A DNA stretch of 9,840 bases from a virus (lineage: Duplodnaviria > Heunggongvirae > Uroviricota > Caudoviricetes), in the IMG/VR virus record IMGVR_UViG_2728369593_000015. One strand, given 5' to 3'. Position numbers: made by a program. Of this stretch, positions 3,001-6,000 are shown one piece after another. Position 1 is the first letter of the stretch. Every line of letters begins with the position of its first letter.

Positions 3001-6000
3001 CTGTAAAAGGGATGCTATCCATGACACCAAGTATGGATATTTTAGGTGCTAATGTTGGATTATACCCTGAAGTTTCTGCTGTTACTGGAAACTTATTTCA
3101 ATATGTAGCATATGGCGCAACCATTGCCATTGGTAATGATAAAACCTTCAATTCGGATAATGGCTTTGGTCTGCTGGCTCCCCGTGGTTTAATGCATATG
3201 TCCGATACAAGCGGATTCAAATACAAGATTTTTGCAGGTATGGAAAGACGAGATGTCAATCGCAACTATACTCTCGAAGGAAAAACAATACAGACGAAAC
3301 AAACAACAGTATCGCTAAACAAAACTGTTGATGAATATCAAGTTGGCGCAACAATTGGGTATGCACCTGTAGCCTTCACACTAGCATTTAATAAAGTAAC
3401 ATCAGAATTCAAGACAGGGGATGACTATTCATTTATAAATGGAGCAATCACCTTCTTTTTTAACTGAATTGAATTCAATCAAAATAACATAAGTCCAACA
3501 AAAACATAAAGTGCGAAATGAATGCCAGCTCCATTTATTTCGCACTATAAAAGATTAAAAGTTGCAATAAAATAATAAAATGACTCAGTTACGAAAACCA
3601 ATAAACTGTGGCCAGTAGTGAGTCGCTCATCATCGGGCTTTTTGGCGAATGAAATTTAGCTACGCTTTCGAGTCTCATCGTCTTCCCCTCTTGCCCTGTT
3701 TGACCATCAGGACGCCGTTAACTATTACATGACGCTCGCCTTTGCTGTCTCGGTTGTACTTGAGCACTGTTCCTCTTGCGCAGGAAAGCATCCTCGCCAC
3801 TTCGGTCTGATTGCCTCGTGTCTGGATAAGAAGCTCTAGTATCGTTTGAATTGTGGCGTTCATGCGTTCTCCAGTTCGGTGATTTTTATTCCAAGCCGTC
3901 CGCCTGGTACTTTCACACCACGAATTACGCGAATGTCATCGAATTGCTCGTCGTCTTCCGCAAATCCGGCGTGGATAAGGGAGTCGAGTAAACCTTTCAG
4001 GATGTTGTCGAGGTCGCGGCGGCGGGAGTCTGGAACGTCTGCGATGACTTTGATGCGGAGTCGTGATTTGGTGAAAATGTCTAACTAAAGTTGGCGGATG
4101 ATTTGCTGAACGTCTTTTCGGTATTTCTGGCCTTTATCGCTGATGTAGTATTGGCTTCCCCGTCTTCGCCAGTAGGTGTTCACCGACGGCGGGTATGGAA
4201 GCACAAACTGATATTCGTTCATGACTTAATCTTCCCCTCCTTCAGCAGTATCGCCTGCGTCCTGATCACGCCTTCGAGGTGGTAAAGTCTGGCGTCTTTG
4301 TTGTCGAGAATCCTTGTGCGTCGGTCGATCTCCGCGTGGCAGTCACTACAAGCCCATGCGCCGATCAGGTCGTCAGGTTTCATTCCCGTTCCGCAAATTC
4401 CAGCCATCCGGTAATGTGCCAGAACTGTAGTTTCAGGATTTCCATTGCATATGCCGTAAATACGTACCTGGCATTCTCTTCCGCGCGCTTCTTTGCGTAG
4501 GTTAGCCATGACTTCTCCCCCATTTCTCTTGGCATCTCCTCAACCACACTCGCATATTTTGGCTGGTAATATCGGTATGCTCTCCGCTGTATTCATTTTG
4601 TGAGTGCTTGCATCTCACATAAACAAATACGGCAAGCAATGGATATGCGAATAACAAAATAAATAACAGAGCTGTAGCAACAGATACTTTCACAAAAAAT
4701 GCAGGCAACTCTCTGACCTGATAGTCTGGAAAATCCAAGAATTCATCGATTATGTTGTTAGCAACATTGGTAGTTGCAATACATGCGACTGACAGACAAT
4801 CAAAATAATTAAAGTCATATCCAGCCGCAGCAGCCCATGTTGGATTGTCTTGAAAATGTTTAAACGTTATTTTTCCGTATCGGCTAATCACCATCGTCTT
4901 CTTCCTCGTACATTGTGAACCGCCCCGGGTTTCCTGGAGAGTGTTTTATCTGTGAACTCAGGCTGCCAGATCATTATTTCCGATGGAAGCATAATAAGCT
5001 TTTTCTGCTTCTGCCGGAGGAATATGGCCCAGCCTTTCCAGCAATCGTCGATTGTTATACCAGTCCACCCACGTTAGTGTGGCCAGTTCCACTTCTGCCG
5101 GTTTTTCCAGCTCTTACGGTGTATTACCTCCGCTTTGTAAAGACCATTGATGCTCTCAGCCATCGCGTTGTCATACGAGTCGCCAGTACTCCCTGTTGAT
5201 GCCAGTAATCCGGCTTCCTTAAGCCGCTGCGTGTAGGCCAGCGATACATACTGAGAACCTTTATCACTGTGATGGATTGTGCCGGACGGCCGACGGGCCC
5301 ACAACGCCTGCTCCAGTGCATCCAGCACGAATGTTGTTTCCATGGATGATGAGACCTGCCATCCCACGATGTATCCGGCGAACACATCAATGATGAACGC
5401 CACATAAACGAAGCCCTGCCATGTGCTTACCCAGGTAAAATCAGCCACCCACAACTGGTCTGGACGTTCTGCCACGAACTGACGGTTTACGCGGTCGCAT
5501 GCGGCAACGGCTTTCCGGCTGACGGTAGTGCGGACCTTTTTACCCCGGAGAACACCGGCAAGTCCCATAACTGCCATGAGACGTGCCACAGTGCATCTGG
5601 CCACTCTGATACCTTCCCGTAACAACTGACGCCAGACTTTACGCACACCGTATACCTGGTGATTTTCATCGTATACGCGCTGTATCTCTTTCTTCAGCCA
5701 GTCATCGTGCTGCGCACGGGCACTGCGTTTATCCGGATGATGTCGCTGTTGCTGACAATGGTAATACGTTGACGGGGCAATATGCAGTTCGCTGCATACC
5801 GGTCCGACCCCGTACTGCTCACGCAGCTTATCCAGCAGTGGCATTATTTTTTCCAGAGGCGGTCGAACTCCGCCTTCGCAAAATAAGCGGAAGCCTGGCG
5901 AAGGATATCGTTACTGCGGCGCAGTTCACGATTTTCACGTTCCAGCTCTTTCAGACGCTGACGTTCAGCGGTGGTGAGTCCACCATCACCACTCCCGGTA

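What the first reader, a model, noticed from the sequence alone, without database searches (positions are those of the whole stretch)
3860..4222. rusA resolvase gene inactivated by a single in-frame amber codon with the active site intact
The full 120-codon rusA frame is preserved, as are the translational-coupling overlaps with ybcO (ATGA) and ninH (ATGA) and the catalytic D70/D72/K76/D91, but codon 46 is TAG. This is a point substitution, not a homopolymer indel, so it is less likely to be a sequencing artefact. It points to recent inactivation or a product made only under amber suppression. In E. coli K-12 the prophage rusA is silent unless activated by an upstream IS insertion; here an IS629 lies upstream in the same orientation but the gene is nonsense-disrupted.
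Basis: partly seen in the sequence, partly recalled or inferred. Interest (0 to 1): 0.5.

Follow-up and report, generated by a model that had tools for sequence, protein, structure and literature searches.

The report
Amber-stopped prophage rusA pseudogene
A phage-derived DNA-repair gene (rusA) in a decaying E. coli prophage was knocked out by one base change that made a stop codon; the change is real and inherited, public annotation of a sister strain already flags it, and it is an ordinary pseudogene.

Summary
rusA lies on the minus strand (4222 to 3860) and has 120 codons. Codon 46 is TAG (4085-4087). The ATGA overlaps with ybcO and ninH are present, and D70, D72, K76 and D91 are conserved.

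It is not an assembly error. The identical allele occurs in four complete E2348/69-type assemblies, where RefSeq annotates it as a pseudogene with an internal stop, and in three DECA-collection drafts.

The ancestral codon is AAG (Lys). All four intact relatives I read carry it. The exact 71-mer with AAG occurs in 195 complete-genome records, against 4 with TAG.

Suppression or rescue looks unlikely:
- The window has no tRNA gene.
- The tRNA-Gln(CUG) gene in the metT tRNA cluster of E2348/69 has a normal anticodon.
- The stop is followed by U.
- There is no in-frame ATG, GTG or TTG before codon 103.

The expected product is therefore a 45-residue fragment with no catalytic residue.

An IS629 does lie upstream in the same orientation. 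Relatives that carry TAG lack it, so it arrived after the stop codon. Its own transposase gene carries a frameshift. A second element, IS100, splits the prophage primase/helicase gene.

Verdict: ordinary, lineage-specific prophage decay that is already annotated. Interest is low.

The parts
3860..4222 (-). rusA pseudogene: a 120-codon RusA-family Holliday-junction resolvase frame plus a TGA stop. It is interrupted only by TAG at codon 46.
   Evidence: Translation. Pfam PF05866, E = 2e-16. Ungapped alignment to 1Q8R. RefSeq annotates the identical E2348/69 gene as a pseudogene with 'internal stop'.
4085..4087 (-). The amber codon, TAG at codon 46. It derives from AAG (Lys) through an A-to-T change at window 4087.
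   Evidence: AAG is present in all four intact relatives read. The exact 71-mer with AAG is in 195 records; the one with TAG is in 4.
4085..4222 (-). The only ORF left that can be translated: a 45-residue N-terminal RusA fragment. It lacks R69, D70, D72, K76 and D91.
   Evidence: the ORF listing. This 45-aa product is called as a gene in the three DECA drafts.
4219..4509 (-). ybcO (DUF1364, putative nuclease), intact. Its stop overlaps the rusA start in ATGA.
   Evidence: Pfam PF07102, E = 1.2e-43. Translation.
3675..3863 (-). ninH, intact. Its start overlaps the rusA stop in ATGA. It has its own GGAG motif 6 nt upstream of the ATG.
   Evidence: Pfam PF06322, E = 1.1e-22. Sequence.
4916..6224 (-). 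IS629 (IS3 family), 1309 bp, 694 bp upstream of the rusA ATG and in the same orientation. It is flanked by a 3-bp TTG target duplication. It splits a 51-aa NinF-like ORF. Its orfB is cut short by a 1-bp deletion.
   Evidence: 99.5% full-length identity to the annotated IS629 of phage BP-4795. Junctions. ALIL frameshift pseudoknot, 120 bits. Absent from relatives that carry TAG.
8263..9840 (+). IS100 (IS21 family), partial: it runs to the end of the contig. It is inserted in the prophage toprim primase/helicase gene.
   Evidence: About 99% identity to annotated IS100 istA/istB. The match to E2348/69 breaks at 8262.

Best explanation
This is a plain nonsense pseudogene. In an ancestor of an E2348/69-like (EPEC1-type) E. 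coli lineage, one A-to-T transversion changed Lys46 (AAG) of the prophage rusA gene to amber (TAG). The prophage is lambdoid and sits at the lambda attachment site, next to ybhC.

Translation stops after 45 residues. The fragment has none of the catalytic or DNA-binding residues (R69, D70, D72, K76, D91), so no Holliday-junction resolvase is made.

rusA belongs to the phage nin region, which is dispensable. The host also has RuvABC. The loss is therefore expected to be neutral, and it spread by descent.

In the sub-lineage that this contig comes from, decay went further. An IS629 landed 694 bp upstream of rusA and an IS100 landed in the primase/helicase gene.

Shown: the mutation, its ancestral state, its distribution, the order of events (by parsimony), and the absence of a nearby suppressor tRNA or restart codon.

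Inferred: neutrality, and the absence of any active product.
For: - Frame, TAG and overlaps.
- RusA identity and active-site residues; the residue roles are from PMC1636454.
- The identical TAG allele is in four complete E2348/69-type assemblies, where RefSeq marks it as a pseudogene with 'internal stop'. It is also in three DECA-collection drafts, AIFB, AIEZ and AIEV, with rusA 100% identical.
- AAG is present in all four intact relatives read. One of them (L021) encodes a protein identical to this one apart from K46.
- 195 records carry the exact 71-mer with AAG, against 4 with TAG.
- There is no in-frame ATG, GTG or TTG between codon 46 and codon 103.
- The window has no tRNA gene. The tRNA-Gln(CUG) gene in the metT cluster of E2348/69 has a wild-type anticodon.
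- Other decay in the same prophage: a Q remnant, partial HNH and other pseudogenes in E2348/69, and two IS insertions here, one of which breaks the replication gene.
- The prophage sits at attB-lambda next to ybhC.
Against: - Nothing contradicts it directly.
- The frame after the stop carries no further lesions. That would also fit continued use by read-through, but the TAG copies do not differ at all, so there is no power to detect selection.
- I could not scan the whole source genome (GCA_001605745.1) for suppressor tRNAs.
- I could not look at reads or expression data.
Confidence: 0.93

Rival explanations
1. Sequencing or assembly error: the real genome has a sense codon at 4085-4087.
For: The window is a contig from a draft assembly, AKYH01000159.1 of GCA_001605745.1.
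Against: The same T is present in seven other assemblies made independently: four complete genomes of the E2348/69 type and three DECA drafts. The change is a substitution and is not in a homopolymer.
Confidence: 0.01
2. Conditional gene: full-length active RusA is made by amber suppression or by natural UAG read-through. Transcription coming out of the upstream IS629 might supply the message, as with the rus-1 and rus-2 IS insertions in K-12.
For: - The frame after the stop and the active-site residues are intact.
- Position 46 is variable (Met in K-12 RusA, Lys in relatives), so an inserted Gln or Tyr would probably be tolerated.
- An IS in the same orientation lies upstream.
- IS2 and IS10 insertions activate rusA in K-12 (PMC1636454).
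Against: - The window has no tRNA gene.
- The tRNA-Gln(CUG) gene in the metT cluster of E2348/69 has a wild-type anticodon.
- UAG followed by U is an efficient termination context (my own knowledge).
- TAG predates the IS, because relatives with TAG lack the IS.
- No sigma-70-like promoter was found on the minus strand between the IS and rusA.
- The intact downstream frame is what a young lesion would show anyway.
Confidence: 0.03
3. Selected loss: the stop codon was favoured because RusA expression from this prophage was harmful, for example through unscheduled cleavage of junctions. On this view it is not neutral decay.
For: The allele is fixed across several strains of one lineage. RusA is reported to be deleterious when over-expressed (my own knowledge, not checked here).
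Against: - In a repressed lysogen the nin region is not transcribed, so there is little for selection to act on (established lambda biology).
- Fixation is equally well explained by clonal descent.
- Intact alleles are the norm in hundreds of genomes with the same gene arrangement.
- Only one origin of the stop codon is seen, with no convergent knock-outs.
Confidence: 0.04

Closest known systems
E2348C_RS03655, the rusA pseudogene of the attB-lambda prophage in E. coli O127:H6 E2348/69 (NC_011601.1, 737061-737423)
   Same: The 363-bp sequence is 100% identical, TAG included. It has the same neighbours (DUF1364/ybcO, ninH, Q remnant, lpxR, Q). RefSeq annotates it as a RusA-family pseudogene with 'internal stop'.
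   Different: The E2348/69 prophage lacks the IS629 and IS100 insertions seen here. Outside the IS elements the two differ at about 0.2% of positions.
E. coli K-12 RusA (DLP12 prophage; PDB 1Q8R, 2H8C)
   Same: Same family, same length (120 aa), ungapped alignment, and the same catalytic residues D70, D72, K76 and D91. Both sit in defective lambdoid prophages next to ybcO.
   Different: The K-12 gene is intact but not transcribed, and an upstream IS2 or IS10 can switch it on (PMC1636454). Here the coding sequence itself is broken, so transcription driven by an IS could not give an active enzyme.
Intact RusA alleles of lambdoid prophages, for example WP_001008199.1 (strain VTB96933v) and WP_001008193.1 (strain Z1323CEC0019)
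   Same: WP_001008199.1 is identical at every residue except K46. Strain Z1323CEC0019 has the same Q-remnant, lpxR and Q arrangement downstream.
   Different: They have AAG at codon 46 and are annotated as functional genes.

Membership tests
RusA Holliday-junction resolvase family (Pfam PF05866) | Significant match to the RusA domain over its full length | tested here: met
   PF05866, E = 2e-16, 61.2 bits against a cutoff of 22.8, profile positions 1-123 of 124. 1Q8R, E = 2.8e-26, residues 1-119 without gaps.
RusA Holliday-junction resolvase family (Pfam PF05866) | Catalytic residues Asp70, Asp72, Asp91 and Lys76 (and Arg69) encoded | tested here: met
   All are present in the frame after the stop. 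Their roles are from PMC1636454 and its references.
RusA Holliday-junction resolvase family (Pfam PF05866) | Uninterrupted reading frame that gives a full-length protein | tested here: not met
   TAG at codon 46. There is no in-frame canonical restart before codon 103. It is a pseudogene of the family, not a functional member.
RusA Holliday-junction resolvase family (Pfam PF05866) | Holliday-junction cleavage, or suppression of ruv mutants | not testable with these tools
   Needs biochemistry or genetics.
IS-activated rusA (K-12 rus-1 / rus-2 type) | An IS element inserted upstream of rusA | tested here: met
   IS629 at 4916-6224 on the minus strand, 694 bp upstream of the rusA ATG.
IS-activated rusA (K-12 rus-1 / rus-2 type) | An intact rusA coding sequence that the IS switches on | tested here: not met
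   The amber codon predates the IS: relatives with TAG lack the IS.
IS-activated rusA (K-12 rus-1 / rus-2 type) | Transcription from the IS reading into rusA | not testable with these tools
   The consensus scan found no promoter-like site on the minus strand between the IS and rusA. That scan is not evidence either way. RNA data are needed.
Amber-suppression-dependent gene | A cognate suppressor tRNA (CUA anticodon) available in the cell or the phage | tested here: inconclusive
   None in the window. In E2348/69 the tRNA-Gln(CUG) gene of the metT cluster has a wild-type anticodon. The rest of the genome, and the source genome itself, were not scanned.
IS629 (IS3 family) | Full-length near-identity to IS629, terminal inverted repeats, a 3-bp target duplication, and orfA/orfB with a frameshift signal | tested here: met
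   99.5% identity over 1309/1310 bp to the IS629 of BP-4795. Ends TGAACCGCCCCGG...CCGGGGCGGTTCA and a TTG duplication. ALIL pseudoknot, 120 bits.
IS629 (IS3 family) | Intact OrfB (296 aa) | tested here: not met
   A 1-bp deletion near window 5098 shifts the frame. OrfB ends after 256 aa with a changed tail.

The most novel reading that the evidence does not exclude
The amber codon might act as a leaky valve. Rare UAG read-through, or a suppressor tRNA not yet found elsewhere in the genome, together with transcription reading out of the newly arrived IS629, would give this sub-lineage trace amounts of active RusA. That would be a back-up resolvase independent of RuvABC. Alternatively, the 45-residue N-terminal fragment might have an activity of its own.
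Probability: 0.02. Interest if true: 0.35.

Novelty: already known. Interest (0 to 1): 0.07.

Why it matters
It matters little. It adds one dated lesion to the decay history of the attB-lambda prophage in the E2348/69-like lineage: first a stop codon in rusA, then IS629 and IS100 insertions in one sub-lineage. The stop codon and the two IS junctions could serve as clonal markers. It does not change what is known about RusA, about amber suppression or about IS-mediated gene activation.

Tried and rejected
- Assembly artefact: rejected, because seven independent assemblies carry the same base.
- Re-initiation giving a catalytic C-terminal fragment: rejected. The only in-frame canonical start after the stop is GTG at codon 103.
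- Suppressor tRNA carried by the phage: none in the window.
- supE-type suppressor in the sister strain: the tRNA-Gln(CUG) gene in the metT cluster of E2348/69 has a wild-type anticodon.
- Exact 47-mer around the TAG in one genome per species (genome contigs): 0 hits. The allele is therefore not in any species-representative genome.
- Seven of the ten places returned for the 45-aa product (L006-L012) were contigs that end at codon 44 or 45, not real stops. They were discarded.
- Promoter scan for an outward-reading IS629 promoter: nothing on the minus strand. This is uninformative.
- The genome paper for E2348/69 (PMC2612414) is not held.
- I could not locate the two other places in E2348/69 that match the rusA probe, because the search tool lists only the best place per record.

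Full report
**Observation**

The window is the complete 9840-bp contig AKYH01000159.1 of the NCBI draft assembly GCA_001605745.1. On the minus strand, 4222 to 3860 encodes a 120-codon RusA frame that ends in TGA. It has a single internal stop, TAG at codon 46, at window 4085-4087.

The upstream gene ybcO (4219-4509; Pfam PF07102, E = 1.2e-43) ends in an ATGA overlap with the rusA start. rusA ends in an ATGA overlap with the start of ninH (3675-3863; PF06322, E = 1.1e-22).

With the stop masked, the protein matches Pfam RusA (E = 2e-16). It aligns without gaps, residues 1-119, to the K-12 RusA structure 1Q8R. K-12 numbering therefore carries over, and D70, D72, K76 and D91 are all encoded. These are the cation-binding and catalytic residues described in PMC1636454.

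Every factual element of the finding is correct. The only addition is that the gene lies on the minus strand.

**Is it an artefact?**

No. The best matches among 5,426 complete E. coli genomes are four assemblies of O127:H6 E2348/69-type strains, at 99.8% over 1 kb. Their rusA is 100% identical to this one, TAG included. RefSeq already annotates it (E2348C_RS03655) as a RusA-family pseudogene with 'internal stop'.

I looked up the exact 45-residue truncated product in public assemblies. Three further drafts (AIFB01000010, AIEZ01000005, AIEV01000040) have a true TAG and a 100% identical rusA. Those accession ranges belong to the E. coli DECA collection (PMC3558956). From memory, and not checked, they are DEC2B, DEC1E and DEC1A, which are O55:H6 strains of the EPEC1 group. 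The other seven places returned were contigs that simply end at codon 44 or 45, and I set them aside.

**Ancestral state and frequency**

All four intact relatives I read have AAG (Lys) at codon 46: strains 98195, Z1323CEC0019, VTB96933v and 7/2. The VTB96933v protein is identical to this one apart from K46.

A 71-base probe centred on the codon matches exactly in only 4 records, all of the E2348/69 type. The same probe with AAG matches exactly in 195 records. In total 868 genomes carry this rusA allele family. A 47-mer containing the TAG is absent from the one-genome-per-species collection.

The lesion is therefore a single A-to-T transversion, confined to one lineage and inherited within it.

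**Can anything functional be made?**

- After the stop there is no in-frame ATG, GTG or TTG until codon 103. A restart could not yield the catalytic region.
- The window has no tRNA gene.
- In E2348/69 the metT tRNA cluster has a single tRNA-Gln(CUG) gene with a wild-type anticodon, so there is no supE-type suppressor at that locus.
- The stop is followed by U. To my knowledge this is among the more efficient termination contexts in E. coli and a poor one for suppression.
- Position 46 is variable (Met in K-12 RusA, Lys here). A read-through product would probably work, but nothing suggests that one is made.
- The expected product is a 45-residue fragment that lacks R69, D70, D72, K76 and D91.

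**Context**

The window matches the nin and late-regulatory region of the E2348/69 prophage integrated next to ybhC, the lambda attachment site. On the minus strand the gene order is: toprim primase/helicase, ninB, ninE, ninF, HNH, NinF-like ORF, 130-aa ORF, ybcO, rusA, ninH, Q remnant. Then come lpxR on the plus strand, ylcG, a complete Q, and two small ORFs.

In E2348/69 the region already carries several remnants: a truncated Q, a partial HNH gene and a frameshifted ORF. Strain Z1323CEC0019 has the same Q-remnant, lpxR and Q arrangement with an intact rusA. The stop codon is therefore a later event, specific to this lineage.

**The IS elements**

Compared with E2348/69, the window has two extra insertions.

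The first is at 4916-6224 on the minus strand. It is 99.5% identical over its full length to the IS629 annotated in phage BP-4795. It has the expected inverted ends and a TTG target duplication, and the ALIL frameshift pseudoknot. It splits a 51-aa NinF-like ORF 694 bp upstream of the rusA ATG. A 1-bp deletion, not in a homopolymer, cuts its OrfB to 256 aa instead of 296.

The second starts at 8263. It is IS100, and it interrupts the 626-aa toprim primase/helicase gene. The prophage in this strain therefore has a broken replication gene.

Contigs from another NCBI draft (NKAF01000118.1) and from a Logan assembly (SRR15187006) match both IS junctions at 100%. The insertions thus mark a sub-lineage.

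E2348/69 and the three DECA drafts carry TAG but neither IS. The most parsimonious order is TAG first and the IS elements later.

It has no functional bearing here. A consensus scan also found no promoter-like or terminator-like site on the minus strand between the IS and rusA, which is weak evidence either way.

**Mechanism and verdict**

The best explanation is ordinary decay of a prophage accessory gene.
- Shown: a single nonsense substitution removed RusA in an ancestor of this E. coli lineage.
- Inferred: the loss was tolerated because the nin genes are dispensable for lambdoid phages and the host has RuvABC (established knowledge).
- Shown: the allele was inherited clonally.
- Shown, with the order inferred by parsimony: further lesions followed.

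Rival explanations get little support:
- Artefact: about 0.01.
- Suppression or read-through: about 0.03.
- Positively selected loss: about 0.04.

The feature is real, but it is already flagged in public annotation of the sister strain, and it needs no new biology.

Noticed in passing
window 1-9840: The window is the entire contig AKYH01000159.1 of the NCBI draft assembly GCA_001605745.1. Length and sequence agree, with 100% identity over the 7239 bases fetched. The right end lies inside IS100, a typical repeat-induced contig break.
   Followed up: yes
window 5074-5844 (deletion near 5098), minus strand: The IS629 copy lacks one base relative to the IS629 of phage BP-4795 (CGGACAGAA has become CGGCAGAA, not in a homopolymer). 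OrfB ends after 256 aa instead of 296 and loses its normal C-terminal tail. This copy may not be able to transpose by itself.
   Followed up: partly
window 7602-8262 (gene fragment) and 8263-9840 (IS100): IS100 (IS21 family; istA, then the start of istB) interrupts the prophage toprim primase/helicase gene, which is 626 aa in E2348/69. Only a 213-aa C-terminal ORF is left on this side. Contigs NKAF01000118.1 (GCA_002461645.1) and Logan SRR15187006 share both the IS100 and the IS629 junctions at 100%, so these insertions mark a sub-lineage.
   Followed up: partly
window 1341-3678: A lipid A deacylase gene, lpxR (2505-3467, plus strand), sits as a moron between a 72-bp remnant of one Q antiterminator gene (3607-3678, minus strand) and a complete Q of another type (1341-2114, minus strand; PF06323, E = 1.7e-91). 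Strain Z1323CEC0019 has the same arrangement with an intact rusA.
   Followed up: partly
window 1-158, minus strand: Below-threshold Rfam hit to the sRNA STnc100 (33.8 bits, gathering score 47, E = 7.4e-5). A 2026 preprint (10.64898/2026.05.13.724894) reports that the E2348/69 sRNAs PasD1 and PasD2 are structural relatives of STnc100 and lie near Q and lpxR, with PasD2 next to a sialic acid esterase gene. In E2348/69, a gene annotated as a SASA-family carbohydrate esterase is the next intact gene beyond this end of the window. This is probably a PasD-type sRNA gene.
   Followed up: partly
L014 20157-20750 (E2348/69, NC_011601.1 618156-618749): The metT tRNA cluster of E2348/69 has one tRNA-Gln(CTG) and two tRNA-Gln(TTG) genes. 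From memory, K-12 has two CTG copies (glnV and glnX). With a single copy, a supE-type change in the anticodon would remove the only CAG-specific reader at this locus.
   Followed up: no
window 10, 2225, 3456 versus L001: There are three single-base indels between this contig and E2348/69. The one at 3456 lies in the last codons of lpxR and accounts for 320 aa here and in two of the three DECA drafts (L004, L005), against 319 aa in E2348/69. I did not determine which state is ancestral or whether one is an error.
   Followed up: no
NC_011601.1 (E2348/69), positions unknown: Both the 1001-bp and the 71-bp rusA probes hit three places in each E2348/69 record. That genome therefore has two more rusA-like copies in other prophages. 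I did not find out whether they are intact and so make this loss redundant.
   Followed up: no
window 4502-4894, minus strand: A 130-aa ORF just upstream of ybcO overlaps it by 8 bases. It has no Pfam match and is annotated only as a hypothetical protein in relatives. It is conserved in E2348/69, the DECA drafts and strain 98195.
   Followed up: no
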